Assembly (NCBI RefSeq): GCF_009914755.1
Contig: NC_060947.1
Reading direction: 5' to 3' (one strand)
Origin: the human T2T-CHM13v2.0 reference genome, Homo sapiens
Length of the DNA: 64,000 nt
Below, in pieces: positions 1,594-32,791 of the stretch. Position 1 is the stretch's first letter. Each line of letters starts with the position of its first letter. Both the position numbers and the translations under genes were made by a program. The notes beneath the pieces were generated by a model. That model was not told the DNA's origin and made no database searches. It saw only the letters and a list, made by a program, of their open reading frames with translations.

Positions 1594-2284
1594 TATTATT
1601 CCCAGAATCGAGCCGGGTTTGGCTGCGTTTTCTTGTGGCCCAATAAGGACAAACAGACAAATTAGGAAAGAAGGGAATTTATTGCTGTAACCGGATACAG
1701 GGAGAAGGTCAGAGATATTCCACCAGACCAACTCAAAGCGTTAAAATTTTCTTAGTGCTTACATAGGTTGGGGTTATGTGCCTATGTGCAGTATAGCATT
1801 TGCCTAAGTCTGTAGGTAACTAATTTTGTTTCAACTAGGTCAGAGGCAAAAAAATGCTTGCTAAGTCCGAGTATGCTGTGAGGGGCCCAGTGCCTTCAAG
1901 GCATGTCTATTGTGGTACTGGAGTGATTATTTCTGTCTTATCTCCTTTATAACTTGGCCCGGAGTACTGTCTTAGACTCTCCAATAAATCTGTTTGAACA
2001 GCTGCCTCTGTTACCTTGACTCGTCTCAGATTTCATCGACCCAAGACAGATCCTGGCACTAGGAATTTAAGGCTGTCTGCATTATTTTGACTTGCTCCAG
2101 GTTAGGGACAAGCTTATGCAAGGCTCCTACTGACCATGTGTTTCATTTCTAGCTTTGATGTCTGGACACCGATTTCCCTAGATTTAACTATTTGCTCAAT
2201 GTTAAGGCAGCTCTGTGGAAATTTATGTAACTGAAGTGTTATGCAGGCCTGTGTGTGATTGTCAGGGAGAATTGGCCTGCCACA
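1594..2284 (-). mobile_element. Solo LTR (ERVL-class, LTR47/LTR62-like; family uncertain)
   Basis: Minus strand begins TGTGGCAGGCCAATTCTCCC; near-TSD ATAGA/ATAGC (5 bp); interrupts the AT-rich array. Confidence 0.6.
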
Positions 2285-2908
2285 ATAGCACTATGTATCA
2301 ATAATATTACCTCATTGTTATTTTAAAATAAATGAAAGAATTAAAAACAAGTCTTTACTAACTTCCTGGTGTCGTATATTCATTCTGGTTATTTCTCTTC
2401 ACCTTTATTTAACTGATTACCTATGTAACACTAGATACCTGCACTACTCACTCATTATTCCACTATAGTAAGAAATTAGCTTTGACAAAAATGTGTTTTT
2501 TCAATTTTGGGCTACTATGTACTTCTCTATTTAACTGTACTTATGTCTAGGTACTCCCAGATATCTGTAGTATTAACTCCTTATTCCAACAAGAAATTAG
2601 AAAGTAGACTTGAGAAAATGTTTCTCATCTTCCTGCATTCAAATAATTATTCCACTTTTCACAAGCTATCAGTTTGCTTTTTCCCTAGCTACCATGACTT
2701 ACATGTAGTATTAACACATTATGCCAACAAGAAACGTGATGTCAGAATTGGGAAGAATGCTTTTTAGCTTCCTGGCTCATACTAGTCATTCTAGTTACCT
2801 CCAGTTATCCCTAGATACCTACTTTTTTAGGTATCACTACTTTTCTATAATTCTAAAGCAACAGTCCACCAAAGAATAAGGATCTAGTATATAAGACTGT
2901 GCGTTTCA

Positions 2909-3990
2909 GGCAAACTAAAATACACAAATGGGACTTCATTAAACTAAAAAGCTTCTGCACAGCAAAAGAAATAATCAACGGACTGAAGAGACAACCTGTT
3001 GAATGAGAGAAAATATGTGCAAACTGTTCATCTGACAGGGGACTAATATGCAGAATATACAGGGAACTCAAACAACTCAAGTGGAAAAACCCACAAATAA
3101 TCTCATTTAAAGGTGGGCCAAAAACATGAATAGACATTTCTCAAAAGAAGACATACAAAAGGTATACGAAAAACTGCTCGAATTCGTTAATCATCAGAGA
3201 AATGCAAATGAAAACCACAATGAGATATTATCTTATGCCACTCAGAATAGCTATTATTAAAATGACAATAAATAACAGATGTTACTGAGTATGCAGAAAA
3301 AAGGTAAGTCTTATACAGTGTTGGTGGGCATGTAAACTAGTATAGCCACTATGAATGACAGTGTAGTGATTTCTCAAAAAACTAAAAATAGAATTACCAT
3401 TCGATCCAGCAATCCCAACACTGGGTCTACCCAAAGGGAAAGAAATCAATATATCAAAGGGATACCTTCATTCGCATGTTTATTGCAGCACTATTCACAA
3501 TAGCAAAGATACGGAAGCAACTTGTGCTCATCAACAGCTGAATGGATAAAGAAAATGTGGTACATATATTCCACAGTGGAATAGTATTCAACCACAAAAA
3601 AGAATGAAATCATGCCATTTGCAGCAACATGGATGGAACTGCAGGTCATTACCTTAAGGGAAATAAACCAGGCACAAAAACACAAGTATCACATGATCTC
3701 ACTTATATGTGGGAGCTAAAAAATGTGGACACATGGAGGTAGAGAGTGGAAAAATAGATAACATAGAATGGAAAGAGTGGAGGGAGGGGGGATGATGAAG
3801 AGAAGTCGGTGGAAGGGTGCAAACATATGGTAAGATACAAGGAATAAATTCAATGTCTGATAGCAGAGTAGGGTGAATATACTTAACAAAAATATACTTG
3901 GGTGAGGGATACCCTAATACCCTGACTTGACACTATGCATTAAATACATGCAACCAAATTTATTCTGTATCCCCTAAACTGGTACAAGTA
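2909..3990 (+). mobile_element. L1 3' fragment (ORF2 end + 3'UTR, L1MA/L1PB-like) followed by Alu monomer 3998-4108
   Basis: Typical L1 motifs AAACTAAAAAGCTTCTGCACAGCAAAAG and ATTGCAGCACTATTCACAATAGC; flanking near-TSD AAGACTGTGCGTTTCA / AAAACTGTGCATTTCA. Confidence 0.85.
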
Positions 3991-4247
3991 CACATGTCTC
4001 ACGCCTGTAATCCAAGGTACTCAGGAGGCTGAGGCAGGAGGATTGGTTGGGTCCAGGAGTTCAAGACCAACTTGGGCAACACTGTCTCTAGAAAAGAAAA
4101 AAAAAAAACTGTGCATTTCAATTTTGACCACAAACGCATGTTCCAACTATCTTTAGTTACCTCTAGTAACCTCGTTGAATAAGTATCACCAGCTATCCAT
4201 AGTATTAGCTGATTATGATAACAAGAAACCAGAGGTTAGAGTGGTAA

Positions 4248-4585
<338 letters not shown>

Positions 4586-5379
4586 CGCCTTCAAATATTT
4601 TTTCTAATTACTTCTACTTAATTCAAATTTACTAGCGACCTACATACCACCAGATATCTGTAGTACAAACTCATTTTATCAAGGAAAGATAAGAATTTCG
4701 TCTTGTCGAGGATTGCTTTCCAGGTTCCAGGCTTCTCTGAGGTTTTCTAGTTATTTCTAGTTATCTCCAGTTCAGTAGTTACCATGTACTCCTGCTTATA
4801 TAGAACTAACTCATTATGCTAACAAGAAATAAGAAGTTGGTTATAGGAAGACGTTGTTCTCCACTCTCTGGCTTTATCTGTTATTGACATTTTACAGGTG
4901 TGACATTATTGAGTCACAGAGACGTTAAGTAACCTGGTCAAAGTCACCCACTTGGGAAATGTCCAGCGCTGGGATTTGAACCTATCTTGAGTACTATCCG
5001 TGATACAGAGGATGTTTGTTATCATGCTATATGCTATAATTTTCTTTTGTAATTAGTAGCTGTAATTATCGCTATTTAACTAGTTTCCTGTGTTCAAGCA
5101 GTTATCTCTAGGACTAACTGATTCCAACAACAGACAAAAATGTAGTGTTGAGGAGAATGGTTAACTTCCTGAATTCAACCACTTTTCTTCAGCATCCTGG
5201 TTTAAACTTCTTATTCTAGATAATCTCATTTATCCCTCGGTTACTAATGAGGGAGGTACCACTAGATATCTATGGCACTAATTCGATATTCAAACAAGTG
5301 AAGGAAATTTTGAGCTGAATGATACTTTATTTCTGTTTATCTCTAGTTAACTAATTACAAAAGAATAATAATTATAGCA

Positions 5380-5830
5380 TAATAGCAAACGTTATTGAGC
5401 ACATCCTCTGTGTCAGGGATGGTACTGAGGATGGGTTCAAATCTCAGCTTTGGACATTTTCCAAGTGAGTGACTTTAAGCGGGGTACTTAACATCCAGGT
5501 GACTCAATAACACTACCTATAAAATGACAATAATAGCACATCAATATGTACCAGTTTGTTAAGAGGATTACATGTGTTCATATAAACAAATCACTTAGAT
5601 CATTGCCTAGAACACAGTAAGAACCAGGTAAGTGTGAGCTACCATTAGTATCATCTCAATTAATCTCCACAACAGCTCCATGAGGTAGGTATTATTATAA
5701 CAGGTTTTACAGATGAGAAAAATGAAGCACAGGGAGAAAAAACCACTCCCCAGGTTAGCTAGGTAGCAAATGTCAAGCAAAGCCATGATGCAGATGCCAG
5801 CAGTCTAACTCCAGGGTCCCTGCCCTCATA
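5380..5830. mobile_element. MIR fragments (also 4895-5040; paralogs in B and C)
   Basis: MIR core TTTTACAGATGAGAAAA and GAGGATTA-type motifs. Confidence 0.6.
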
Positions 5831-6544
5831 AATCTAGGACATCAAACTCATCATTTGGGCCTATTTTTGCTTGGATGATGCTCAATTACGTACAAAACAT
5901 TTGCAAGAAGTGACTCAATTTAACTAAAAATTTTAAGTGAATACTAATTGATTGGTGGCCCGGTAGGTAACACTCACCGAAGGGGCACAGAAATGACTAC
6001 TGAAGCTTAGAAAGCACTGAAGCAAGTCATGGAAATCTCTCAGACACCACACAACTCCAATTCTGACAGATGTCCTAGCTGGGCTAAGGCACACCATGAT
6101 TAAAATCATTGTAGGTCTCTCACATAGTAACTGATCCCAGGCCAAATTTCATCTCAGAGTGTCTGGCCACGAGAAGGGTGAGGTCTACAGAACCCTGCAA
6201 GCGGCAGCCTGAGGAGGAGACGTCTTGGTTAATGTCAGGGAGAGTCTGTGGGGGTGAAATTCCTTGACAGCATTTTCAGAGTGAATTGTTCAACCAACCA
6301 TCTTGTAGCTGGTTTCCTCTCTATCCTCCTGGAACAGGAGAAAGGAGAGACTTACCTGTCTAGCACAGTGGGCGAAGTGAGTGGGTGTACCTTTATGGGC
6401 CTATGAAAATGGTTTATTTTATTAAATGGGTCTGATGGCAATGGTGTTTATCATGGCAAAAAAAAAAAAAAGGATAAATAATCCCAATATTCAGGAAACC
6501 AACTCATTCCAAGGAACAATTCTTATTTTTAATTAATTAATTAA

Positions 6545-6975
6545 TTAATTAATTTTTATTTATTTATTTTTTTAGAGCCAGGGTTTCATTGAGTCACCCA
6601 CGCTGGAGTGCAGTGGTGTGATCATAGCTCACTGCAGCCTCCAATGCCTGGGGTTAAGCGATCCCCCCACCTCAGCCTCCTGAATAGCTTGCACGACAGC
6701 GCATGACACCATGCCCAACTATTTTGTTTTTTATTTTTTTAGAGATGGGTTTTTTTCTATTTTGCTCAGGTTGGTCTCAAACTCCTGGTCTCAAGCGATT
6801 CTCCCGCCGAAGCCACAGGAGGAGCTAGTATTTACAGGCGCGCACAACCGAGCCCAGAATCGTACGGGGGCACGATTTTTAAATTTTTTTGTTTTGAAAT
6901 ACAGGGTCTCGCTCTGTCGCCCAGGCTGGAGTGCAGTGGCTGGAGTGCAGTGGCGTTATCATAGTTCACTATAAC
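6545..6975 (-). mobile_element. Old Alu plus Alu monomer fragment, shared by A, B and C
   Basis: Diverged Alu at the same position upstream of all three copies (B 18500-19450, C 33890-34310). Confidence 0.8.
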
Positions 6976-7699
6976 CCACATCCTGCATCGTCCTGAGGCA
7001 CACTTCTTAAGGGAAAAACATAGAGGTCCCAATCGGCCCTGGCTCTTTTTTATTTGACATTTATCAGTAGGGAGCAAAAGGTCAGAATGATAGTTCTAGA
7101 CAAAGAGTAGGAAATGAGAAGCAGGAGGAGGAGGATGGGTAACAGAAGTGGGTGAGGATGGAGGGAAGACGGGAGCTAACCCAAGTCCCCAGCGCCTGCC
7201 CAGCACAGTGAACACTGGCACTTCTGCAGAGGGCTTGCAACCTAAGGCGCCAGAGCCCAGCATAGCTTAGCAGACATTGCATGCTCCACAGTCGCGTCTA
7301 GCGCCAAAGGAAGGGCCACTTGCAGTGTAAGCCTTCTGGGATGCACTAAACACCAGGCAGGGTTCTATGTGTACTCTGACGTGGAGTACCTGGAGCTTTT
7401 GCAAGGGGCGTGTTAGGTTTCTTGCAACTTGCACCTGAGCATCCAGAGTGCTCTGCAAATCCCAGCCCCAAACTTCTGCTTCCACAGATCTCCTGGAGAG
7501 CGTGGCGCACTCAACTTTCTGGACATTGCTGCAAAAACCTAGCATGCAGCCTCTGACTTCATCATTTCATCTTAATTACGGTCCGATTCGCGGACTTTGG
7601 GTGGGAACAGACCAGAGCTAGAGAGACTCATCCATTAGTTACTAACTACCCAGAGGGGAGAGCAGTGCTGGCAGTCCAAATTGCAAGGTGCGCTGCCTT

Positions 7700-8900
7700 C
7701 AGCGTGCGGCGTCTTCGCCCTGGAGAAGCATTACGCTGGCCCGCCTGCCTCCAGGGCCACACGGAAACGTGTTCTGCAAACTTTCTCCAAGGGCTCGGGG
7801 GCTAGATTGTGTCTCGCTCCGCTGCCTCTCCCCCTGCCTCAATTTCGACTCCTGCCAGACAGCTCAGCCCCTCCCTCTGGCAGTCACCCCGCCCGGAGTG
7901 GGAGTGGTCAACGAAGCTGCAAAATGGATCGCAAGTCCCCACACACGTCCGACCCCTCCCCGCGCCCTGACCACGAACGCATCCCTGACTTAACCGCCAC
8001 ACTCGGGCCGTGAGCGCCTGCCAGCAGGGCCTTCCGCCACACACACACACACACACACCGCAAGCAGCGGCGACCAGGGCAGGAGCCCACTCCCCGCCAC
8101 CTGCAGGCGTCGGACCCGAAGTCCACGAGCCGGAACTCAGAGCAGGAGCCGAAGGACCCCAGCGCAGAATCCGTGGAGGCGCACGGCTTCATCCACCGCG
8201 CTCCCAGATGGGGTCCCAGCCCAGATCCGGCCACGAAGACACAGGCAACCCCGGCCTGGGTTTCCTGTTCCATGAGCTCCAGGAAGGCGACAGTCAGTGC
8301 TTGTCTGGGGACCCGGACCGGTGCTTTGGGGAACTCCCCCGGAGGGAGAGAGTTTGGGGAACTCTCCCGAGAAGGGAACTTTCCCGGAGAGGGGGGCGTG
8401 GACCGGACGCTGCTGCGCCTCCTCTCTCAGGCCGCGGTTCTATGCTGCCCTGTGCCCGCGCCAAACGCCCTGATCTCTCTCTGTCTCCTCTCTCAATCTC
8501 TCTTTGCCTTTCCTCCTTTCCAGATGCGAAGGCTGTAGGGACTTTGGTGACTGAAGCTGGAGGAGACGAGGAGAAGAAAATACGGTCCAAACCCGAGCAG
8601 GGAGCTGGAGCAGAAGAAGAAAGTCACTTCTGTGCGGGAGCTGCCGACCCCACGATCAAGGATAACCAGAAGCGCGGCGGTGGCGACCAGGAGCCCTCGC
8701 AGCAGCAGCCTGAGGCTTCCAGCCCAGGACTCCTCCGCGGAGGAGCCACAACCCCAATATTAGCGGCGTCTCTTCAGCCCCAGTGCGTTCAGCAGGTTGC
8801 ACCTGAAGGAGCTAGACAGCATTTTCCCACGCTCTGAATATCTCGACGTGTTCGCTCGGTAAGCGGCTTGCTCTGGAGCTTCCCAGTTCCCAGGACTCTG
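7700..8900 (+). promoter_or_regulatory. CpG-rich promoter/5' region of copy A with (CA)n at ~8038-8058
   Basis: Dense CpG, GC-box-like motifs and a CA microsatellite upstream of the ATG; paralogous in B and C. Confidence 0.65.
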
Positions 8901-9739
8901 GGGCTCTTCCCTGGACGCCTTTGGCTCTACCCATGTCTCTTTACCAGGCTCCAGTGCCAAGAGCTATTTAGGGGGCTCAAGGCCACTGGCTCAGGGCCGC
9001 TCTTGAGCTGTGGGATGCGGGCGATAGCAACTGGGCATCAAGGTATTTTTCAAGCAGTATAGATACGAATCAAGTTAAATATTTGCATTAAAATTATTAA
9101 TCTTCGGGCTGGTGCTGTGGCTCATGCCTGTAATCCGAGCGCTCTGGGAGGGCAAGTCAGGAGGATCACTTGAGTCCAGGCGTTCAGGGCCAGGCTGACC
9201 AATATACTGAGACTTCATCTCTACAAAAAATTTTGTAAAATTAGCTGGGCATATTAGCAGCACGCACCCGTAATCCAAGGTGCTCTGGAGGATCGCTTGA
9301 GCCCAGAGTTCAAGGCTTCAGTGAACTGTGATCCGGCCACTGCCTTCCAGCCTGTGCTACAGAGCTAGACCCTGTCTCTAAAATTAGATACATAGATAAA
9401 TTACATGAATAGATGACAGATAGATAGAGATAGAAAAATCTTGAATCCTAAGTGTTTTAGCCCTCTCTGAAATTCTGCACACAAAGGAAAACAATCCCCT
9501 ACCTAATGCAAGCCTGGGGCTATTTTTAGGTATCACAGAAAAATGTGCAGGAGCAGTTGGGAGGCTAGACATTTTCAAACTGGTATGAAATGTTCATAGG
9601 TGTATTTCGTTTCATCCACAATTCCAAATACTGAATTTTTGTAGTTTTCTTTCCCAGAAAGCAGCTTGCAATCTGCATGGATGTGAGTGAAGCCGAAGTG
9701 GAAGCCAGTAAGCCTGATGAAAGCAATTGGTCAGAGTAG
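8208..9739 (+). pseudogene. RHOX/ESX1-like paired-class homeobox relic, copy A (RHOXF1P-type); exons 8208-8292, 8524-8858, 9658-9703(+33 nt to TAG 9737-9739)
   Basis: ATG 8208; donors GTCAGT (8293) and GTAAGC (8859); pyrimidine-rich CAG acceptors ending 8523 and 9657. Translation resembles ESX1/RHOXF N-termini (RSKPEQG, GGGDQEP..QQQ) and homeodomain helices 1-2 (AFSRLHLKELDSIFPRSEYLDVFAR|KQLAICMDVSEAEVE). The 46-nt middle homeobox exon is typical of RHOX/ESX1. Lesions relative to B/C: +1 nt near 8716-8722 and TAG at 8761-8763. Confidence 0.9.
9107..9382 (+). mobile_element. AluJ-like in intron 2, shared by all copies
   Basis: Orthologous diverged Alu at B 15580-16183 and C 31200-31478. Confidence 0.85.
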
Positions 9740-10908
9740 CCACTCTCTGAAACCTGCCTCAGTCCTTGAATACCTTTGTCCTACACATTCTCCAATTGGC
9801 CTGTTTTTGTTGCCTTTTCTATGTTTGCCAAGTGAGTTTTGAACTTTAGCGGGGGAATAATGGGATACATAAACCTTAGCCTATGGAAATTTCCCATTAC
9901 CAGAGGGAATATGCTTTCTAATGCGAAACAGAACTAAACTGTTACTTCTATTTCCTGTACAAGGTTAAGTGTAAATAAAGTTCCATTCCTTCTAACAATG
10001 GTATCCTTTAGAGAACACTTCTGTGTGGAGTTATGTTGGGACTGAGTCTGACTTGAGGAGTTTGCAAATTAATGCACCAAGGACCCATATTGTGAGAAGG
10101 TTCAACTGTATTTAAAATATTTAAACCAGGCTATGTTCTTAGCTAAATGACCAAATTTATAAATATTCAGGCATTGGGATAAGGGAATAAGTTACATACA
10201 GAAAGAACACATTATATGAGTAATTAATGTATGTTTAGTTTCACTGAGACTTATGGGGAGGACATAGCTTAAAAGTCCAAGTGCCTGGTAGTCCTGCTGT
10301 TGTTTTTAAGGGTCTGATGAAGCCATGTAGAAAGTGGCAGCCCGCAATTTTGATTTTCTCCAATACTTTTATTTGTAAGCCGGAATACACTGCTAATATA
10401 CTTGCATTACACTGGGGGTGTGGGGGGGCAGGTTTGCAAACAGGAAATTTGTTTAAAAATTGGAATAAAAAAGAACAATTTTGAAAAAGTTTTCACTTAA
10501 CTAAGAAGGGTGAAAAGGTTAAAGAAAAATTGCATACACTCAAATATATACCTTGAAGGTATGGCACAAATGGAGCTCTATGAGGGAATATTCTCTTTAG
10601 GAATTTCTGACAACTAAGAAGTTTTTTTTATGTTACTGTTTTAAACTGGTGGGTTTTATGTAATTTGTTTGGTGGTGGGGTGGGGCACGCTCAATTTAGA
10701 CCAGGTTCTTACCTGTGCTAATTTGAAATGGTTTTTCATTTTCCCAGGCAGTGGTGATTAATTTGTAAGTCATGAGATCAAGAAATTACTAAGATTACTT
10801 CAGTATTATTGACTGAGTATATTTTCAAAACAAAGAGAAAATCCAGGATTAGGTTATGAGCAGTGCTGTGCAGTTCATGTGAGTGCAGTGATGGGCCCCC
10901 CATGACTA

Positions 10909-11266
<358 letters not shown>

Positions 11267-12023
11267 TTTCAGAGGATGAATGGCCCCTTAGGCATCCTTT
11301 ACGAAACCTGATTAAAGATCCAGCCTGCTCCTATTGATGTAGTTACTTCAGACTGAAGATGGGCTTTTCAAACGGGGTTGCAGTGTGTAAAGATCCGGCC
11401 ATTGCACTCCAGCCTGGGTGACAGAGTGAGACTCCGTCTCAAAAACCACAACAAAAAAGAAACTTTAGAAAGCAAAACCCCCAATTTTTTTGATTACTAT
11501 AGAATGCAGAAGCTCCTGGACTCTTCCCGAGATTGTGTTCATAACTTTTCAGCTGAAACTAACATCTGTGAAGACCATCTATCTTGGGTGAACCTATTTT
11601 CTGGTAACCAGTGTTAAATATTTTTTAATAAATAAAAATTTTAAACTTGTATTAGAACAGTTAATTTCTCGTCTTTGCCTTTTTTCCTTTTTTAATATGT
11701 TTTTAAAATCCCTTTTGAGAGATGAGATCTGAATATGTTGCCCAGACTGGTTTTGAACTCCTGAGCTCAAACAATCCTCTCACCTCGGTTTCCAGAAGTG
11801 CCGGGATTACAGGCCTGGGCGATCACACCTGGCCTGGTTGTTGCCTTTGCAATATTTGAAGTACATTTTAAAATACATGCGTTTTGTGGGATTACTTTTA
11901 AAAGAACTCTCTGTTTTGAAATTTAGATTGAGTGGAAACTATTATCTAAAGCATTATTTTTTACTATTTCCTCTGCCCCACGCCTTAGTTCTTCTGGAAC
12001 TTTGAAGAACTAGAGAGACATTA

Positions 12024-13305: not shown

Positions 13306-15243
13306 TTATCTTAGTAATCACTTCATAGTGCAGCCTTGGTGCTCACAATTAACCACTTTTAATAGCCAACGAGAAGTCTTGCATTGCTAGAGATTGCTCA
13401 TAAGCAAAGGCTGTATTGAGAAGAACTTAATGTTTCTTTAAAAATGGGCCTGGCTTCCTTCACCCTCCCATTTTTGTTTTTGTTGTTTTCTACTCTGGTA
13501 GTTGCACAGGAAGAAGACACCATGATCAAATGACTGCCTATTCCAGTGAATGATGAGTCTAGATTACTGCTCAGGGGACCATCTCCTTGATTCCAGTGCC
13601 AATAACCCCAAAGATGCCCTTTCTATTTTTAATTAGCAGGAATTCGAGATCTCTTAAGGATGAAGAGAGCAACAAAATACATTGGACAGTGTGATTGTCC
13701 GTTTTGAATTGGGGAAGGTGCAATAATATGCCTTCTGGGCTGGGGATGGGGGAGAAAAGGGAGAACAGCTTCATTCTGGCTTTGGTGGAGTCTCATCTCA
13801 TGATTCTTCTGAAGCAGCAGGACCTTTGGGCCAGAATGACTCCTATTCCCCTGTGTCCCCCACAAAAAGGGAGGGCGGTGGACAGAATTTGGAGCATGTC
13901 GAATCAATGCTTAGCTGTTGCCTTCCCATAAATACTGAGTAGCCGCTTAGGAAGCTTCCCCTAGAGTCCGGAGTTGGGCATGGATGTCCCTATTAACATT
14001 GATGGGTCCCTATTCTGTCTGAAAAAAAGGGCCAAACTAGTTCTAAATTCACTAAAAGTCACCCGCACCAGCTCTGCAGCTCCTTTCCATCACTGCCCTC
14101 ACACAAACTGCAGAGCGAGGCTCATAACCTCATCCTGGATTTTGTTTTCGTTTTGGAAAATTCTCTCTTAATAAAACTTAAGTAATCTTAGAAATCTTTT
14201 GATCCCATGACCTACAAATTAATCATCACTGCCTGGGAAAATGAAAACGTATTTCAAATAAGCACAGGTAAGAATCTGGTTTAAATTGAGCGTGCTCCCC
14301 ATCACCAAACAAATTTCATAAAACCCACCTCTTTAGACAGTCCCATCAAAATAATTCCTTAGTTGTTAGAAATTCCTCAAGAGAATATTCACTCATAAAG
14401 TTCAATTTGTGCCATTTCTTCAAGGTATATATGTAAGTGTATGCCATTCTTCTTTAACCTTTTCACCCTTCTTAGGTGACTGGAACCTTATTCAAAATTG
14501 TTCTTGTTTGTTCCAATTTTTAGGCAAATTTCCAGTTTGCAAACCTGTCTCCCCCCGCCCCCCACTGTAATGTGCGTATATTAGCAGTGTTTTCAGGCTG
14601 ACACATCGAAGTATTCCAGAAAATTACAATTTCAGGTAGCCACTTTCTACATGTCTTCATCAGACACTTCGAAAAAATAGCAGGACCACCAGGCACTTGG
14701 ACTTTTAAGCTATCTCCTCCCCATCAGTCTCAGTGAAACTAAACGTACTTAATTACTCATATAGTGTGTTGTCTGTGTGTGTGACTTAGTCCCTTAACCC
14801 AATGCCCGAATATTTATAAACTCACTCACTGAGCTAAGAACCTAACTTGGTTTAAATATTTTAAATACAGTTGAAGCTTCTCACATCGTAGCTCTTTGGT
14901 GCATTAATTTGCATACTTCTAAGTCAGACTCAGTCCCAAGATACCTCCACACAGAAGTAGTCTCTAAAGGATACTATTGTTAGAAGGAACCGAACTTTGT
15001 TTATTCTTAATTTTGTACAGGAAATAGAAGTAGCAGTTTGGTATGTATAGTTTTATTTTTCCATTAGAAAGCATATTCCCTCTGGTAATGTGTAATTTCC
15101 ATAAGCTGGGGTTTCCTTATCCCATTTTTCACCCTCTAAAGTTCAGAACTCACTTTGCAAACATAGAAAAGGCAACAAAAATAGGCCAACTTGAGAATGT
15201 GTAGGACAAAGGTATCAAAGGACTGAAGCAGGTTTCAGAGTGG

Positions 15244-17251
<2,008 letters not shown>

Positions 17252-17448: not shown

Positions 17449-18846
17449 CGGACGGAAGGTCCTGCTGGCACGCGCTCACGGCAGGAAGGTGGCGGTAAAG
17501 TCAGGGGCGAGCTCCTGGTCAGGGCGCGGGGAGGGGGTCGGGCGTGCAGGGAACCCGCGCTCCAGTTTGCGGCTTGGTTGACCACTCCCAACCCGGGTGG
17601 GGTGACTGCCAGGAGGAAGGGGCCAAGCTGCCTGGCGCCAACAGATTGGGGCAGGGGAAGGGGCGGAGGAGCTAGACCCAATAGAGAAAGTTAACAGAAC
17701 ATGTCTCTGTCCAGCCCTCCAGGCACGCGGGCTTGCAGAATGCTTCTCCAGGGCGAAGGCGCTGCAAGCTGAAGGCAGTGCACCTTGCGGCGTGGGTTCC
17801 TGGCACCACGCTGCCCTCTGACTAGTTGGTGACTAATGCATGAGACTCTCTGGTTGTGTTCCGTTCGCACTCAAAGTCCTCGAATCGGACCGTAATTAAG
17901 ATGAAATGATGAGGTCGGAGGCTGCATGCTAGGTTTTTGCAGCAACGTCCAGAAAATTGAGCACGCAACGCTCTCCAAGGGGGTCTGGGGAACCCTGAGT
18001 TTGGGCCTGGGTTTGGCAGACCGCTCCGGATGCTCAAATGCAAGCTGCAAGAAACCTAACACGCCCCTTGCTAACTAATTACTCCACCTCAGAGTACAAG
18101 CGTAGAACCCTGTTCGGTGTTTAGTGCATCTAAGAAGGGTTACACTGCAAGTGAATCTTCCTTTGGCTCTAGACGCGACTGCGGAGCATGAAATGTCTGC
18201 TAAGCTATATTCTGCTCCAGAGCCTCAGGTTGCAGGCCCTCTGCAGAAGCGGGAGTGTTTCGTGTGCTGGGCGGGCGCTGTGGACTTGGCTTAGTTCCCG
18301 CCTTCCCTTGCTCGTCATCACCTTCTCTTACCCACCCTCCTCGTCCTCCTCCTGCTTTCCCTTTCCTACTCTTTGTCTAGAATTATCTTTCAGACCTCTT
18401 GCTCCCTACTGATAAATGTCAAATAAAAAAGAGGCAGGGTAGATTGGGAGCTCTATGTTTCTCCCTTCAAGAAGTGTGCCTCAGAACGATGAAGGCTGTG
18501 GGTTACAGTGATCTATGGTCGCCCCACTGCAATCCTGCCACTGCACTCCAGCCTGGGAGAAAAAGAGAGACCCTGTACCTTAAAAAAGAAAATGGTTCCT
18601 CGGGATGATGCTGGGCCCGGTGGTGCGTGCCTGTAATCCTAGCTACTCCAGGAGGCTGAGGCGGGAGGATCGCTTTAGCCCAGGAGTTTGAGACCAGCCT
18701 GAGTAACACAGCAAGACCCCCATCTCTCAAAAAATAAAAAACAAAAATAGCGGGACGTGGTGGCACGCACCTGAAGTCTAAGCTACTCACCTAGCTGAAG
18801 CGGGAAAATCGCTTGAACCTAAGCGTTGGAGACTGTAGTGAGCTAT

Positions 18847-19379
18847 TTTTACCAGCGGAGGCTGTTCAGTTTGTTGGCGTTTTGAACAAAGAATTGGACA
18901 AAACTCGCAAGGAAACAATGAAGCAACAAAAGCAGAGATTTATGGAAAACGAAAGTTCACTCCACAGGGTGGGAGCAGGCCTGAGCAGCCACTCAAGGGC
19001 CCCGATACAGAATCTTCTCGGGTCCAAATACCCCCTAGAAGTTTCCCATTGGCTACTAGGTGTTCACCTTAGGTAAATGAAGTGATGACTGGCAATCAGT
19101 CTAAATGGTTGTGGAAAGCAACCAATCAGAGGCTGAAGTGAAGTCACAAAGTTCCATTCCTCTGCAAAGGTCTGATTGGTTCCAAAAAGCAACCAATCAG
19201 AGGTACTTTTAATTTCCCGTCTGCCCAGCAGATAAGGTGGGGGTTTGCAAAGGGAGTAGCCACAGGTGCTTTTGTTACTTAGGCGTGGGAAGTTAGGGCT
19301 TTCCTTTCAATTTAGTTCTAGGATGTCAGCCTGAAACGGCATTAGGTTCACTGCTTCCAGACCCTATTCTCCTGCCTCA
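18847..19379 (-). mobile_element. MER51-like solo LTR (ERV1) inserted in an Alu, private to B
   Basis: Minus strand starts TGAGGCAGGAGAATAGGGTCTGG; 4-bp TSD CTAT (18843-18846, 19380-19383); multiple CCAAT boxes. Confidence 0.85.
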
Positions 19380-21398
19380 CTATGATCACACCACTGCACT
19401 CCATCCTGAACTACAGACTGAGACCCTAGCTGTAAAACATAAAACAAAATAAAAAATAAGAATCAGGCCTTGGAATGAGTTGGTTTCCTGAATATTGGGA
19501 TTATTTAGCCAATTTTGGCCTTCAGAACCACCACTGTCATCAGGCCTATTTAATAAATTAAACAATTTTCATAGGCCCCTAAAAAGAACTGGGACCCCCA
19601 CTCACTTTGCCCACTCTGCCTGACAGATAAATCTCTCCTCTCTCCCATTCCTGGATGGTAGATAGGAAGCCAGCTACAGAATGGTTGGTTGACCAATTCA
19701 CTCTGAAAAAGCTGTCAAGGAATTTCACCCACAGACTGTCCCTGACATTAACCAAGACGTCTCCTCCTCAGGCTGGATCTTGCAGGGTCCGGCAGACCTC
19801 ACCCTTCTCATGGCCAGACACACTTTGATGAATTTTCGCCTGGGATCAGTTACTATGTGAGAGACCTACAATGGTTTTAATCATGGTGTGTATTAGCCCA
19901 ACTCGGATATCTGTCAGAATTGGAGTTGTGTGGTGTCTCACAGCTGAGATTTCCATGACTTGCTTCAGTGCTTTCTAAATTTCAGTAGTCATTTCTGTGT
20001 CCCTTTGGTGAGTGTTACCTACCAGAGCACCAATCAAAGTAGTATTTACTTTAAAATTTTTAGTTAAATTGATTCACTTCTTGTAAATGCTACGTACTGA
20101 ATTGAGCCTCATCCCAATAAGCATAGGCACAAATGATGGGTTTGATGTCCTAGATTTATGAGGGCAGGGACCCTGGAGCCAGACTGCTGGCATCTGCATG
20201 ATGGCATTGCTTGACATTTGCTAGCTAGCTCACCTGATGAGTTGCCTTTTCTCTCTGTGCTTCAATTTTCTCATCTGTAAAATGAGGTGATAATAATATC
20301 TACCTCATGGAGCAGTTGTGGAGATTAATTGAGATGATACCAATGGTAGCTCACACTTACCTGGTTCTTACTGTGTTCTAGGCAATGATCTAAATGATTT
20401 GTTTATATGAACACATGTAATCCTCTTAACAAACCTATATACACATTGATGTGCTATTATACGTCATTTTACAGGTGGTGTTATTGAGTCACCAAGGTGT
20501 TAAGTATCCTGCTCAAATTCACTCACTTGGGAAATGTCCAAAGCTGAGATTTGAACCCATCCTCTGAGTATTATTCCTAACAGAGAGGATGTGCCCAATG
20601 ACATTTGCAATTATGGTATAATTATTATTCTTTTGTAATTAGTTAACTAGAAATAAGCAGAAATAAAAGTATCATTCATCTCAAAATTTCTTTCACTTGT
20701 TTGAATATCGAATTAGTGCCATAGATATCTACTGGTACCTCCCTCATTAGTAACCGAGGGATAAGTGAGGATATCTAGAATAACAAGTTTAAACCAGGAT
20801 GCTGAAGAAAAGTGGCTGAACTCAGAAAGTTAACCATTCTCCTCAACACTGCATTTTTGTTTATCGTTGGAATCAGTTAGTCCTGTAGATAAGTGGTTGC
20901 ACACATGAAAATAGTTAAACAAATCCCAGCTCTGGACATTTCCCCAGTGGGTGACTTTGAGCAGGTTACATAACATCTGTGTGACTCAATAACATCACAC
21001 CTGTAACATGTCAATAACAGATAAAGCCAGAGAGTGAAGAACATCTTCTTCCTATAACCAACTTCTTATTTCTTGTTAGCATAATGAGTTAGTTCTATAT
21101 AACAAGGGGCACATAGGTAACTACTGAACTGGAGATAATGAGAGATAACTGGAAAACAGAGAAGCCTGGAACCTAGAAAGCAATTTTCAACAAGACAAAA
21201 TTCTTATGTTTCATTGATAAAATCAATTTGTACTATAGACATCAAGTGGTAGGTAGGTCAATAGCAAATTTAAGTAAAGTAGAAATAATTAGAAAATAAC
21301 TTGAAGGTATGAATCTGAAAAATCAGGATTTACCACTCTAACTTCTGATTTCTTGTTATAATAATGAGCTAATACTATAGATAACTGGTGATACGTAT

Positions 21399-22174: not shown

Positions 22175-22829
22175 TCACTATGTTACCCAAGCTGGTCTTG
22201 AATTCCTGGGCCCAAGCAATCCTCCTGCCTCAGCCTCCTGAGTAACTTGGATTACAGATGTGAGACATTTGTATTTGTACAAACTTATGGGATACATGAG
22301 GAATTTAGTTGCATGAATTTAATGCATAGTGTCAAGTCAGGGTATTAGGGTATCCATCATCCAAGTACATTTTTGTTAAGTATACTCATCCTACTCTGCT
22401 ATCAAACATTGAATTTATTCCTTCTATCTTACTGTATGTTTGCACCCTTCCACCCACTTCTCTTCATCATCCCCCCTCCCTCTGCTCTTTCTATTCTATG
22501 TTATCTATTTTTGCCCTCTCTGCTTCCATGTGTCCACATTTTTAAGCTCCCACATATAAGTGAGAACATGTGATACTTCTCTTTTTGTGCCTGGTTTACT
22601 TCCCTTAAGGTAATGACCTGCAGTTCCATCCATGTTGCTGCAAATGGCATTATTTCATTCTTTTTTATGGCTGAATATTATCTCTTCCTGAGAGGCCTTA
22701 GACTGAGCCAATATTTAACGCTGGCTACAAGAAAATAGGTTCACCCAAGATAGATGGTCTTTGTAGATGTTAGTTTCAGCTGCAAAATTATGAACCAGTC
22801 TCGGGAGGAGTCCAGTAGCTTCAGCATTC

Positions 22830-23340
22830 AAGGCCCCAGATACAGAATCTTCTCAGGTCCAAGTACCCCCTAGAGGTTTCCCACTGGCCACTTGGTGTCC
22901 ACCTCATGTAAATGAAGTGGTAGCCTGCAATCATTCTGATTGGTTGCTTGTCACAACCAATCAGAGGCTGAAATAAAGTTACAAGGTTCACAGCCAATCA
23001 GAGGTGAATGTGAAGTTACAAAGTTGCACTTCTATGCAAAGTAAGACTTGGCCCACAATCAGTTTGATTGGTTGCAGACAGCAATCAATCAGAGGCTGAG
23101 GTGAAGTTACAAAGTTACACTCCTACGCAAAGGTCCAAATGGTTGCAAAAAGTACCAGTCACAGGTACTTTCAACTTCCCATTGGCCCTGCAGAAAAAGT
23201 GGGTTTTGCAAAGGGTGTAGCCTCTGGTCCTTTTGTTATTTAGGCATGGAAAGTTAGGGTTTTTGTTTCAATTTAGTTCTAGGAAGTAAGCGTGGAACGG
23301 CCTTAGGTTTTCTGCCTCCAGACCTTATTTTCCTGCTTCA
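22830..23340 (-). mobile_element. MER51-like LTR, 3'-truncated
   Basis: Similar to 18995-19379; minus strand starts TGAAGCAGGAAAATAAGGTCTGG; tandem CCAAT units. Confidence 0.8.
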
Positions 23341-24290: not shown

Positions 24291-25559
24291 TGAAGGGTAG
24301 ATCTTAAGGTGAATGTGTGAATTCCTAACATTTACATGCCAGTGTTTTAGATTCTGGGAATACAAAAGATACCTCGTACACACATTCTTGATTTTACAAT
24401 CAAGGGACACGAGAGATTGAAGTGGTGACATTCAGGCATAGACACCATAACTGATTTACCTAGACTCATCCCAAGCACAGCATCCAGACTAAATTAGAGC
24501 CACTATGAGAAGTGCAGGTTTGGAGCGTGACTTTTTCCTCTGATAGGCCCAAGAATTTTGGTTTAAGAAAAAAAAAAAAAATAGAGGCAGGGCAGAAGGC
24601 AAGGAAGAATCTCTGTCCATTTCATTTTTGAACGAGGGGCAAAAAGATGAAACAAAAGATGTTTTAAAATCAGAAGTGGAGAAGAAGGCTGTGGAAACCT
24701 AGTGGAGAGAGGAATCCATGGGAATGACAGAGCCCAGAGCTGTTGTTCACTTTTAGGGAGCTGTGTGGTAACGGGGAGCTGGGAGTAGGGCATCCACTCA
24801 GTGTTAGCCAGTGGGGCACAAAAAGATGGTTGTGGTCAACTGGGTTTTATAGGAGAAAGGAAAACAGAACTCAGGTTCATATACAAATGGATTTCTAATG
24901 TCTCCTTCCACAGCCCCCATTACAAGGTCAAGCAGTAGGGCCTGTCTTTTCTCTTTTTCTCTCTCACCTACCTGCCTTTTAACTCAGTTGGTCTTCTTAA
25001 GGGGCTTACCAGGATTGAAACATTGATTAAGAAGGAGTGAAAGTCAGGACTGGGAGGGGCATCTCACAATGTGACTGGCCCTGGCGCAGGTCCCTAAGCC
25101 TAACACCCCAGGAAACATCCAGGATTGTCCTATTTCTTCATTTGATCAGAAGATATTTCCAAGAATGTCCAATTAATTCTATGCGCCTACTCACCACATC
25201 AAAACTGCAATTCCAACAGGGAGTCAGAAAAATTTTGAAAGGTGTTAACTTGGTTCTTCCGCTGTTTGTTTAGCATAGAGACTTGGACTTCTGAGGTATC
25301 CATAACCAAATCTGTCCTTCCCCGAGATGGATTATGATCCAGAGATATTGCATAGTGATATATTAAGCTGAATCTTTAATTCAGCAAACCAAGATAGGGG
25401 GTTAGTTCTGGATAAAAATTAAGCAGATTAAACCATTGGGTATGGACCAAATATTTCTCGTTTGTTCTTTTACCTGGACCAATTAGATGGATTCCTTTTT
25501 CATTGCTACAAACTGTCATTTTTGCTATTCATTTATTCATCCATTTATTCCCTGTTGTC

Positions 25560-28090
<2,531 letters not shown>

Positions 28091-29315
28091 TTGGAGGCCA
28101 GTTCTTATTGGTAAAATATTTTAGGAAACTTAATGCTGTACCCCCTTGCCTTCCGTTCTGTTTTGGATTATGCTTATTGCTTTGTTTCTCTCTCCTCCCA
28201 TTTTTAATATTCTTTAAGGGTTTTTCCAGCTCCTGGATATGAGTCTAGTGAACAAACTGCACTAAGTATCTGCTGTTAACGCTATGCTTGGTAATAGGAT
28301 GAAGAAATGTCAGTATCCTGACAGTGGACCATTGGGGTGTCTAGCTGCCTCTACTCCCTCTTCATTAGGAATAGTGTCACCCTGGTAGTGGTGATAGTTG
28401 AGCAAGGTATATGGTGGGCCCCATTTAGAGTTATAGGGTGGGAAGGCCCCCCATTTGAAAAGGCCATCTTCAGTCTGAGGTGACTACATCAATAGGAGCA
28501 GGTTGGATTTTTAATCAGGTTTCCTCAAGGATGTCTAAGGGGTCATTCATCCTCTGAAAACTTTTTTTTTTTTTGAGACAGGGTCTTGCTCTGTTACCCA
28601 GACTGGAATGCAGTGGCACAATCTCGGCTCACCTCTCGGGTCCAGGCGATCCTCCTGCCTCAGCCTTTGTAGTAGCTGGGGCTACAGTGGTATCCCAGCA
28701 CGTCTGGCTAATTTTTGTATTTTTACCATGAGGTTTCACCATGTTGGCCAGGCTGGTCTCAAATTCCTGGCCTTAAGTGATCCACCGGCCTCTGCCTCCC
28801 AAAGTGTTGGAATTACAGGCATGAGCCACTGGGCCCAGACTTCATCCTCTGAAAAATCTTGAAACTGAAAAGGATGGTCTGAAAAAAAAGCTTGGTCATG
28901 GGGGGCCCAGAGAGTTTGTGGCTTGTCTAGCTGGGACAGAATAGTCCTGATGCCCTGGATATTGCCTTGATATTTTAGCCTGCAGAGTTAAGGAAAATTT
29001 GGCCAAACTAGGTCTAAATTCACTAAAAGTCACCAGCACTAGTTCTGCAGCTCCTTTCCATCACTGCACTCACACAAACTGCAGAGCGAGGCTCATAATC
29101 TCATCCTGGGTTTTCTTCTTGTTTTGAAAAAATACTCTTAATAAAACTTAAGTTATCTTAGTGACTTTTTGATCCCATGACCTACAAATTCATCATCACT
29201 GCCTGGGAAAATGAAAAACTATTTCAAATTAGCATAGGTTACATTCGGGTCTAAATTGAGCGTGCCCTACCCCACCAAAAAATTTCATAAAACCTACCAG
29301 TTTAAAACAGTAACA

Positions 29316-29630
<315 letters not shown>

Positions 29631-30531
29631 ACCAGTAATACCAAAAACTCCTTAGTTGTTAGAAATTCCTCAAGAGAATATTCCCTCACAAAGCTCAATT
29701 TGTGCCGTATCTTCCAGGTATATATTTGAGTGTATGCAATTCTTTTTTAACCTTTTCAGCTTTCTAAGGTGAGTGGAACCTTATTCAAAATTTTTCTTGT
29801 TTATTCCAATTTTTAGGCAAATTTCTAGTTTGAAAACCTGCCCCCCCACACCCCCACTGTACTGCAAGTATATTAGCAGAGCATTCACGCTTACAAATCA
29901 AAGTATTCCAGAAAATTTAAATTAAGTGCTGCCACGTTCTGCATGGCCTCATCAGACACTTAAAAACAACAGCAGGACCACCAGCCAAGAGTACTTTTAA
30001 GTTATGTCCTCCCCATCAGTCTCAGTGAAACTAAACATACATTAATTACTCATTTAGTGTCTTCTCTCTCTGTGTAACTTACTCCCTTTCCCCAATGCCT
30101 GAATATTTATAAATTCAGTCATTTAGCTAAGAAGGTAGCCTGGTTTAAATATTTTAAATACAATTGAAACTTCTCACATCCTGGCTCCTTGGTGCATTAA
30201 TTTGCGTAGTTCTTAAGTCACACTCAGTCACAACATAACTCCATACAGAAGTGTTCTCCAAAGGTTACCATTGTTAGAAGGAATTGAACTTTATCTTAAT
30301 TTTGTATAGGAAATAGCAGTAGCAGTTCAGTTCTGTTTAATTTTATTTTTCCATTAGAAAGCAAATTCCCTCTGTTAATGGGAAATTTCCACAAGCTAAT
30401 GTTTACATATCCTACTTTTCACCCCCTAAAATTCAAAACTCACTTCGCAAACATAAAAAGGCAACACATACAGGCCAATTGGAGAATGTGTAGGACAAAG
30501 TATCCAAGGTCTGAGGCAGGTTTCAGAGTGG

Positions 30532-32566
<2,035 letters not shown>

Positions 32567-32791
32567 CTGGGAGCGTGGTCGACGAAGCCGTGCGTCTCCG
32601 CGGATTCTGCGCTGGGGTCCTCTGGCTCCTGGTCCGAGTTCCGGCGCGTGGACTTCGGGTCGGACGCCTGCAGGGGACAGGGAGTGGGCTGCTGCTCAGG
32701 ACGCCTCCGGTGGCTGTGTGTGTGTGTGTGTGTGACAGAGAGAGAGAGAGAGAGAGAGAGGAGAGGGAGAGAGAGAGAGAGAGAGGAGAGG

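What the first reader, a model, noticed from the sequence alone, without database searches (positions are those of the whole stretch)
9658..9979. Triplicated RHOX/ESX1-like gene appears to have encoded a homeodomain lacking helix 3, with a conserved replacement C-terminus
Seen: in all three copies the position of the exon-3 donor reads GAA|GCCAGT (GC, not GT). The frame continues GCC AGT AAG CCT GAT GAA AGC AAT/C TGG TCA GAG TAG (ASKPDESNWSE*; A 9704-9739, B 15279-15244, C 30567-30532). These 36 nt differ by one synonymous base across three otherwise visibly diverged copies. AATAAA follows ~190-240 nt later (A 9974; B 15057/15005; C 30347). I found no WFxNRR exon downstream of any copy. Known: RHOX/ESX1 homeoboxes have a 46-nt middle exon, with helix 3 in the next exon. 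Inference: the ancestral transcript ended in an extended exon 3, giving ~166 aa (85+334+46+33 nt) with helices 1-2 only, a non-DNA-binding homeoprotein that could act as a cofactor or dominant negative.
Basis: partly seen in the sequence, partly recalled or inferred. Interest (0 to 1): 0.85.

Follow-up and report, generated by a model that had tools for sequence, protein, structure and literature searches.

The report
Shared dead splice site in RHOXF1 pseudogenes
Three old copies of a human X-linked RHOX homeobox pseudogene share one broken splice site, and the short "new tail" that follows it is former intron that looks conserved for ordinary reasons, not a selected protein ending.

Summary
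Copies A (RHOXF1P3, +), B (RHOXF1P2, -) and C (RHOXF1P1, -) each carry the 46-nt RHOX middle exon. It is followed by GAA|GCCAGT instead of the family's CAG|GTCAGT, then 11 in-frame codons and TAG. The three copies differ at 1 of these 36 bases. No WFxNRR exon exists in the window.

The donor was lost before the triplication, and the majority consensus of the copies is an open 166-codon frame. So the ancestral locus could only have encoded helices 1-2.

The "conserved C-terminus" is not evidence of function:
- The 36 nt are CpG-free. Once CpG columns are removed, equally conserved windows occur at about ten places in the repeat unit (permutation P = 0.93).
- Conservation runs past the stop codon (44 of 48).
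- The same stretch is conserved as intron in ESX1, RHOXF1 and RHOXF2B (25 of 34, against 25 of 46 for the exon).
- A spectrum-matched test shows no significant coding constraint since the triplication (P = 0.074).
- Each human copy is broken by its own lesions.

Copy A's only published product, XCP (132 aa), ends in exon 2. Ordinary pseudogene decay is the best reading. A once-functional protein without helix 3 remains possible (about 0.15).

The parts
9658..9703 (+). Copy A (RHOXF1P3 / LOC124908537) exon 3, the 46-nt homeobox middle exon (helix 2)
   Evidence: It shares its acceptor and length with the ESX1, RHOXF1 and RHOXF2B exon 3.
9704..9739 (+). Copy A: former intron 3 read through. It runs from the dead donor GCCAGT over 11 codons (ASKPDESNWSE) to TAG at 9737-9739.
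   Evidence: It is homologous to intron sequence in the four other family members.
9740..9790 (+). Copy A: non-coding continuation of the same conserved block beyond the stop codon
   Evidence: A, B and C are identical at 44 of 48 columns. ESX1, RHOXF1 and RHOXF2B are identical at 28 of 39.
15280..15325 (-). Copy B (RHOXF1P2) exon 3
15244..15279 (-). Copy B read-through of 36 nt. It carries the single difference, AAC for AAT.
30568..30613 (-). Copy C (RHOXF1P1) exon 3
30532..30567 (-). Copy C read-through of 36 nt. It lies inside RefSeq exon 30613-30472, whose donor GTATGT at 30471 is specific to C (A has GTTTTT, B has ATTTTT).
   Evidence: and the hub's gene table.
8208..8837 (+). Copy A present-day ORF (exon 1 from ATG 8208 to 8292, exon 2 from 8524). 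It gives 132 aa and stops at 8835-8837 after an A-specific extra base near 8721. Its length and a quoted peptide match published XCP.
   Evidence: Papers PMC13099652 and PMC8062694 (passages).
16590..16924 (-). Copy B exon 2, with B-specific indels of +8, -4 and -3. The B start codon position 17251 reads ATC.
31940..32273 (-). Copy C exon 2. It has no indels, but it has one C-specific TGA and a TG|A split codon at the exon 2/3 junction. The C start position 32566 reads GTG.
28095..28153 (-). Relic of the 3' part of intron 3, found downstream of copy C only. The helix-3 coding sequence that should follow about 100-140 nt later is not recognisable.
   Evidence: blastn E = 0.007 with RHOXF1; nhmmer E = 0.0022. 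A and B have no homologue of C 27550-28449.
24531..24574 (+). Orphan relic of a helix-3 exon: acceptor, then TTTTGGTTTAAGAAA, which reads FWFKK. It lies on the strand opposite to B and C, about 15 kb downstream of A.
   Evidence: E = 0.026; local alignment z = 8.9 to RHOXF2B and 5.9 to RHOXF1, but 0.3 to the region downstream of C.

Best explanation
These are the three annotated RHOXF1-like pseudogenes (RHOXF1P3, P2 and P1). They are old copies (82-85% identical) of one RHOX/ESX1-family gene.

Before the copies arose, that gene lost the splice donor of its 46-nt homeobox exon: CAG|GT became GAA|GC. Exon 3 could then no longer be joined to the helix-3 exon. Any transcript runs on into former intron 3, where the frame meets TAG after 11 codons. 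The "replacement C-terminus" is that read-through.

Its near-identity among the copies has two ordinary causes. The stretch has no CpG, and CpG sites account for much of the visible divergence. It also lies inside a block flanking the micro-exon that is conserved in every family member, where it is intron. After the triplication the copies decayed independently.

Shown: donor loss before the triplication, intron homology of the tail, independent lesions in each copy, and no exceptional conservation.

Inferred: that the ancestral truncated product had no selected function.
For: - Three-way alignment: 4715 ungapped columns, 76.6% identical in all three copies, pairwise 82-85%.
- Donor: 3 of 3 copies read GTGGAA|GCCAGT. 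The other 4 of 4 (ESX1, RHOXF1, RHOXF2B and a relic beside RHOXF1) keep G|GTCA.
- The 36 nt align to intron in those four. Among ESX1, RHOXF1 and RHOXF2B they are identical at 25 of 34 columns, and the next 51 nt at 28 of 39. The exon itself scores 25 of 46.
- In A, B and C the conservation continues past the stop: 44 of 48, then 49 of 56 non-CpG columns. Tail versus flanks gives Fisher P = 0.22-0.39.
- Three-way identity is 0.467 at CpG-affected columns and 0.804 at the others. Permutation gives P(best 36-window >= 35) = 0.93 and P(best 84-window >= 79) = 0.15.
- Every ORF lesion is specific to one copy.
- Nonsense changes: 3 observed, 3.7 expected. Synonymous changes: 33 observed, 26.6 +/- 4.1 expected, one-sided P = 0.074.
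- The A and B repeat units end 1.2-1.7 kb after exon 3 and hold no exon-4 homologue.
- The hub's RefSeq models read through the GC site.
- The published protein of copy A (XCP, 132 aa) comes from exons 1-2 only.
Against: - The majority consensus of the three copies is an uninterrupted 166-codon frame with no shared frameshift or stop. So the frame was still whole when the copies formed.
- Naive NG86 dN/dS between copies is 0.36-0.59, and 0.17-0.38 in helices 1-2.
- The spectrum-matched test leans the same way (P = 0.074).
- Exon 2 is somewhat better kept at non-CpG sites than the unit average (223 of 259 = 0.861 against 0.804).
- The tail has 1 change where the CDS-wide rate predicts 5.1 (P = 0.034, uncorrected).
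- The block changed a good deal on the stem leading to A, B and C (A versus ESX1: 24 of 36) yet hardly since. That is the reverse of what simple relaxation after donor loss predicts.
- No other primate genome could be examined.
Confidence: 0.7

Rival explanations
1. After donor loss, the ancestral primate gene persisted for a time as a functional 166-aa protein. It had the RHOX N-terminal region, helices 1-2 and the tail ASKPDESNWSE, and it acted without DNA binding, for instance as a cofactor or dominant negative. The human copies died later.
For: - The consensus frame is open and all lesions are copy-specific.
- There is a weak excess of synonymous change (33 against 26.6, P = 0.074).
- NG86 dN/dS is 0.17-0.38 in helices 1-2.
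- Exon 2 non-CpG identity is 0.861 against 0.804 for the unit.
- The tail's only change is synonymous.
- The hydrophobic core positions of helices 1-2 are kept in the consensus.
- The N-terminal region can act without a homeodomain in copy A's product XCP (PMC13099652, passages).
Against: - Nothing reaches significance once the mutation spectrum is matched.
- The tail is no better kept than the non-coding sequence after its stop codon.
- The same block is conserved as intron in functional paralogues.
- An open consensus frame is also expected if the duplications simply followed donor loss quickly.
- None of the 3 human copies is intact.
Confidence: 0.15
2. Gene conversion among the three copies recently homogenised a short tract around exon 3. 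On this reading the near-identity reflects neither constraint nor low mutability.
For: - All three pairwise identities rise together around exon 3 (0.87-0.95 in A 9529-9832, against 0.82-0.85 overall).
- In the tree of this block the tips are short (A 0.025, C 0.041).
- A and B form a large inverted repeat, a setting in which conversion is common. That last point is established knowledge, recalled.
Against: - It needs at least two conversion events covering the same roughly 90-300 nt.
- Inside that tract the 46-nt exon still differs at 8 of 46 columns.
- The upstream flank shows similar identity (about 89% pairwise) without invoking conversion.
- After CpG removal, no excess conservation is left to explain.
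Confidence: 0.1
3. The GC site, or the GTAAGC 4 nt downstream, worked as a splice donor and joined exon 3 to a helix-3 exon. The ancestral protein would then have had a complete, or a frame-shifted, homeodomain.
For: - GC-AG introns exist (recalled).
- CCA|GTAAGC matches the intronic donor consensus at +1 to +5, judged by eye against a recalled consensus.
- A relic of the 3' end of intron 3 lies downstream of C.
- An orphan FWFKK relic lies at 24531-24574.
Against: - The GC site has A at -1 and C at +3, whereas working GC donors usually need a near-perfect remainder (recalled knowledge, not scored here).
- The +4 donor would shift the frame by one base.
- No RefSeq model in the hub's table uses either site.
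- The A and B units lack exon 4.
- C's exon-4 coding sequence is unrecognisable.
- The orphan relic is on the opposite strand to C and is unrelated to C's downstream sequence (z = 0.3).
Confidence: 0.05

Closest known systems
RHOXF1P1, RHOXF1P2, RHOXF1P3 (annotated human RHOX pseudogenes)
   Same: They are the same loci. The hub's table places them at 27876-32710 (-), 15280-16880 (-) and 8550-9700 (+). The literature counts three human RHOX genes plus three pseudogenes (PMC10531175 and PMC4584094, passages).
   Different: The passages I read do not mention the shared donor loss, the open consensus frame or the tail. My three literature searches and look-ups turned up no description of them.
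XCP, the 132-aa protein of lncRNA1456 / RHOXF1P3 (PMC13099652; peptides in PMC8062694)
   Same: It comes from copy A and shares the start codon and the N-terminal residues up to the extra base near 8721 with the ancestral frame. It is described as nuclear and as lacking a DNA-binding domain.
   Different: XCP ends in exon 2 at 8835-8837, because an A-specific extra base near 8721 shifts the frame. It contains no homeodomain helix and never reaches exon 3 or the tail.
ESX1, RHOXF1, RHOXF2/2B (functional PRD-class homeobox genes)
   Same: Exon 2 is similar (tblastn E = 7e-13 to ESX1 and 8e-11 to RHOXF1). The 46-nt exon 3 and its flanking intron block are shared (68-74% identity over about 250 nt).
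   Different: The functional genes keep a GT donor and a helix-3 exon: VWFQNRR, VWFKNKR and IWFENRR. In the tree of the exon-3 block, A, B and C form their own clade (support 100) and do not nest with RHOXF1.
Homeodomain proteins that do not bind DNA, such as HOPX, and truncated homeobox isoforms (recalled, not tested)
   Different: As I recall it, HOPX keeps all three helices and is conserved and intact. Here helix 3 is missing and no intact copy is known.

Membership tests
RHOX/ESX1 homeobox gene family (as gene or pseudogene) | Exon 2 encodes a RHOX-type N-terminal region and homeodomain helix 1 | tested here: met
   tblastn with the ESX1 and RHOXF1 exon-2 frames hits all three copies. The best value is E = 7e-13 in C. 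The best RHOXF1 values are B 6e-11 and C 8e-11. Pfam Homeodomain is only weak on the 31-32 aa fragments: E = 0.23 for B, nothing for A.
RHOX/ESX1 homeobox gene family (as gene or pseudogene) | 46-nt middle exon in the same phase, between homeodomain positions 31 and 46 | tested here: met
   The alignment of 7 sequences shows the same acceptor and the same length.
RHOX/ESX1 homeobox gene family (as gene or pseudogene) | Helix-3 exon (WFxNRR type) downstream on the same strand | tested here: not met
   The pattern has 0 matches. nhmmer and blastn find only an intron relic downstream of C and an orphan relic on the other strand.
Functional protein-coding gene | Intact reading frame in the present genome | tested here: not met
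   0 of 3 copies are intact. A has one extra base and a TAG. B has three indels and ATC at the start. C has two TGA codons and GTG at the start.
Functional protein-coding gene | Purifying selection on the frame since the triplication | tested here: inconclusive
   NG86 gives 0.36-0.59, but the spectrum-matched permutation gives P = 0.074. Variable sites by codon position are 35, 24 and 41 of about 164 each, chi-square P = 0.065.
Functional protein-coding gene | Intact orthologues in other species | not testable with these tools
   No primate or other mammalian genome is held. PMC13099652 states only that the locus is conserved in primates, judged from the ECR browser.
GC-AG intron | GC at +1/+2 with otherwise strong donor consensus, and use in transcripts | tested here: not met
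   The site reads GAA|GCCAGT, with A at -1 and C at +3. No model in the hub's table has a junction there. The consensus requirement is recalled knowledge.
Selected coding extension (new C-terminus) | Conservation confined to the frame and higher than in neighbouring non-coding sequence | tested here: not met
   The tail scores 35 of 36 and the sequence past the stop 44 of 48, Fisher P = 0.39. The block is also conserved as intron in the paralogues.

The most novel reading that the evidence does not exclude
A distinct RHOX lineage, as old as the ESX1/RHOXF1/RHOXF2 splits, gave up helix 3 in an early primate. It then persisted, and was triplicated, as a nuclear protein that does not bind DNA. 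That protein was built from the RHOX N-terminal region (the part that survives in XCP, which binds PHF8) and homeodomain helices 1-2. Its death in the human lineage came later. Intact versions might still exist in other primates.
Probability: 0.15. Interest if true: 0.6.

Novelty: already known. Interest (0 to 1): 0.25.

Why it matters
As it stands this is ordinary decay in three annotated pseudogenes. Three small points are of use:
- It explains why copy A's published protein XCP resembles homeobox proteins but has no DNA-binding domain.
- It shows that the three copies were already cut off from helix 3 when they formed.
- It points to an intronic block next to the 46-nt RHOX exon that is better conserved than the exon itself in ESX1, RHOXF1 and RHOXF2B. 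This block may matter for splicing of that micro-exon.

If the bolder reading were true, it would be a case of a homeobox gene turned into a cofactor that does not bind DNA, then amplified on the primate X chromosome.

Tried and rejected
- **Naive dN/dS** (NG86, 0.36-0.59). I do not accept it as evidence of selection. Three-way identity at CpG-affected columns is 0.467 against 0.804 elsewhere, and a test that re-deals the observed changes among sites of the same base and CpG class gives only P = 0.074.
- **Conserved RNA structure** as the reason for the block. RNAalifold energy is weak (-11.74 kcal/mol over 318 columns). Pair counts exceed shuffles (9 pairs with double changes against 5.1 +/- 1.3; 3 of 500 shuffles reach it), but the structure was derived from the same 7 sequences. 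Single-sequence MFE z-scores are -1.0 to +1.35, and the exon-intron helix appears in 1 of 7 folds. Left open, not adopted.
- **Segments 11380-11660 (-) and 22680-22960 (+)** as exon-4 relics. They are homologous to each other (89%) but do not align to intron 3 or exon 4 of the family.
- **Rfam** on 9400-10100. One sub-threshold match (BLV_package, 22.7 bits against gathering score 70, E = 0.018), taken as chance.
- **Pfam** on the helix-1 fragments is too weak to use.
- **Loss of the basic N-terminal arm** as a sign of death before the triplication. Rejected, because functional RHOXF2B lacks it too.
- **Whole-genome DNA searches** found no further copies. The exon-3 block gives 5 places and exon 2 gives 3 places. 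The tool scores only the best candidates.

Full report
**What is there.** Each copy has a polypyrimidine tract and AG, then a 46-nt exon: A 9658-9703 (+), B 15325-15280 (-), C 30613-30568 (-). After it comes GAA|GCCAGT, then 11 codons (ASKPDESNWSE) and TAG. B differs from A and C at one base, AAC for AAT, both Asn. The AATAAA positions are also right. A self-comparison of the window shows that the copies are parts of large repeat units: A about 3581-11377 (+), B about 22681-14087 (-), C about 36138-28449 (-). A three-way MAFFT alignment of the gene parts has 4715 ungapped columns, of which 76.6% are identical in all three. Pairwise identities are 82.8% (A-B), 84.8% (A-C) and 81.7% (B-C). The hub's table names the copies RHOXF1P3, RHOXF1P2 and RHOXF1P1. 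Whole-genome DNA searches found no further copy of exon 2 (3 places). The exon-3 block matched five places: the three copies, ESX1, and a relic beside RHOXF1.

**The family context.** From the window's own genome I fetched ESX1, RHOXF1 and RHOXF2B. All three have the 46-nt exon and a helix-3 exon further on, beginning VWFQNRR, VWFKNKR and IWFENRR. Translated exon 2 of ESX1 and RHOXF1 matches the three copies about equally well (best E = 7e-13 and about 6e-11). In a tree of the exon-3 block the three copies form their own clade (support 100) and do not sit inside RHOXF1. "RHOX/ESX1-like" is therefore a fair label.

**The donor.** In an alignment of seven sequences, ESX1, RHOXF2B and the relic read GTGCAG|GTCA, and RHOXF1 reads GTGCGG|GTCA. 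A, B and C all read GTGGAA|GCCA. Three derived changes (-3, -1, +2) are shared by all three copies, so the donor was lost before the triplication. The sequence after it aligns base for base with the intron of the other four genes. The "replacement C-terminus" is former intron read in frame. Read the same way, ESX1 stops after 4 codons and RHOXF1 after 8 (read off).

**Is the tail conserved because it codes?** Four results say no.
1. *CpG.* The tail contains no CpG. Columns touched by a CpG in any copy are identical in all three only 46.7% of the time, against 80.4% for the rest. After dropping those 537 of 4715 columns, 98 of 4143 windows of 36 score at least 35, at about ten separate places. 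In a permutation, 93% of shuffles reach 35 of 36 somewhere.
2. *The stop codon is not a boundary.* The next 51 nt score 44 of 48 and the following 60 nt score 49 of 56 non-CpG columns. The intron before the exon scores 104 of 117. Tail against flanks gives Fisher P = 0.22-0.39.
3. *The same block is conserved where it is certainly intron.* Among ESX1, RHOXF1 and RHOXF2B, the homologue of the tail is identical at 25 of 34 columns and the next segment at 28 of 39. The coding exon scores only 25 of 46.
4. *The single change, though synonymous, carries no statistical weight.*

**Was the truncated frame ever under selection?** The majority consensus of the three copies is an open frame of 166 codons from ATG to the tail's TAG, with 7 columns where all three differ. 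All lesions are private to one copy:
- A has one extra base near 8721 and a TAG.
- B has +8, -4 and -3 indels, and ATC at the start.
- C has two TGA codons and GTG at the start.

That is also what one expects if the duplications followed donor loss quickly.

NG86 dN/dS between copies is 0.36-0.59 overall and 0.17-0.38 in helices 1-2 (codons with gaps or stops excluded). This method is biased by the strong CpG and transition excess here. As a control, I re-dealt the 91 observed changes among sites of the same base and CpG class, skipping the start codon and codons with an ambiguous consensus. That predicts 26.6 +/- 4.1 synonymous changes against 33 observed (one-sided P = 0.074), and 3.7 nonsense changes against 3 observed. 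Variable sites by codon position are 35, 24 and 41 of about 164 each (P = 0.065). This is a lean towards constraint, not a demonstration.

**Helix 3.** There is no WFxNRR anywhere in the window. The A and B units end 1.7 and 1.2 kb after exon 3 and have no counterpart of C 27550-28449. Downstream of C, on the right strand and in the right order, lies a relic of the 3' part of intron 3 (28153-28095; blastn E = 0.007, nhmmer E = 0.0022). The coding sequence that should follow is not recognisable: local alignment z is 3.4-4.9 and equals the best of 200 shuffles. RefSeq's RHOXF1P1 exon 4 (27950-27876) sits just beyond that point.

A second and clearer relic lies at 24531-24574 on the + strand. It has an acceptor followed by a stretch reading FWFKK (nhmmer E = 0.026; z = 8.9 to RHOXF2B and 5.9 to RHOXF1). 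It is on the opposite strand to B and C, about 15 kb from A, and unrelated to C's downstream sequence (z = 0.3). I treat it as an orphan.

**Transcripts and protein.** The models in the hub's table read straight through the GC site. A's terminal exon is 9658-10841 or 9658-11266. C's exon is 30613-30472, with a C-specific GTATGT donor. AATAAA is common here, with 146 matches in the window on the two strands together. The B/C site at 15057/30347 is missing in A.

Copy A is the published lncRNA1456 / RHOXF1P3. It encodes XCP, a 132-aa nuclear protein translated from exons 1-2, described as lacking a DNA-binding domain and binding PHF8 (PMC13099652, passages). Mass-spectrometry peptides cover 89% of the ORF (PMC8062694, passages). 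The frame from ATG 8208 through the 8292/8524 splice is exactly 132 codons, contains the quoted peptide HEDTGNPGL, and stops at 8835-8837. XCP therefore ends before exon 3, and its last stretch is out of frame relative to the ancestral protein.

**What is in print.** Reviews count three human RHOX genes and three pseudogenes and place a primate expansion at about 79.5 My (PMC10531175 and PMC4584094, passages). The passages returned by my searches and look-ups do not mention the shared donor loss or a tail.

**Verdict.** The mechanical part of the inference stands: donor lost before the triplication, frame open at that time, read-through into the intron. The best explanation is ordinary pseudogene history, with the apparent conservation caused by the absence of CpG and by an old conserved intronic block beside the micro-exon (confidence 0.7). 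A once-functional protein without helix 3 remains possible (0.15) and needs primate orthologues to settle.

**Limits.**
- The ancestor is approximated by a majority consensus under a star-tree assumption.
- All alignments are MAFFT alignments of human paralogues only.
- Splice-site strength was judged against a recalled consensus, not scored.

Noticed in passing
Outside the window: L008 about 1790-3050 (+), equal to window coordinates about 137790-139050: A fourth RHOX/ESX1-like relic lies head-to-head with RHOXF1. It has an exon-2-like stretch (tblastn E = 1.5e-6 to ESX1) and an exon-3 block with an intact CAG|GTCACT donor. It is not in the hub's list of neighbouring genes.
   Followed up: partly
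24531-24574 (+), with context 24392-24700: An orphan helix-3 exon relic. It has an intron motif about 140 nt upstream, an acceptor, a 9-nt insertion, then FWFKKK running into a poly-A tract. No exon 1-3 partner is found on that strand nearby.
   Followed up: partly
A 9612-9850 and homologues: L005 1400-1660 (-), L007 3820-4100 (-), L009 3905-4165 (-): The intron flanks of the 46-nt exon are conserved across ESX1, RHOXF1 and RHOXF2B, more strongly than the exon itself (25 of 34 and 28 of 39 against 25 of 46). This may be a splicing element for the micro-exon. The RNA-structure tests were inconclusive.
   Followed up: partly
3581-10894 (+) with 22681-14087 (-): Copies A and B form a large tail-to-tail inverted repeat. 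Their far-upstream flanks are about 89% identical, clearly more alike than the CpG-rich promoter and exon 1-2 part (65-71% three-way identity).
   Followed up: partly
11502-11622 (+) and 22829-22710 (-): A 121-nt segment is 89% identical between the two places. It lies just downstream of A's unit and just upstream of B's unit. This fits a former tandem arrangement in which A later lost about 5.6 kb that C retains (28449-22829).
   Followed up: no
about 8721 (+): A single extra base specific to copy A creates the out-of-frame C-terminal part of the published XCP protein. The homeodomain frame behind it also carries an A-specific TAG.
   Followed up: yes
18846-19380 and 22825-23340: B has about 530 nt that A lacks. 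Part of it (18990-19379) recurs in direct orientation at 22825-23340 (82%). It is probably an inserted repeat and was not identified.
   Followed up: no
30471 (-): The donor used by RefSeq RHOXF1P1 (GTATGT) is specific to copy C. A has GTTTTT and B has ATTTTT at the same place.
   Followed up: yes
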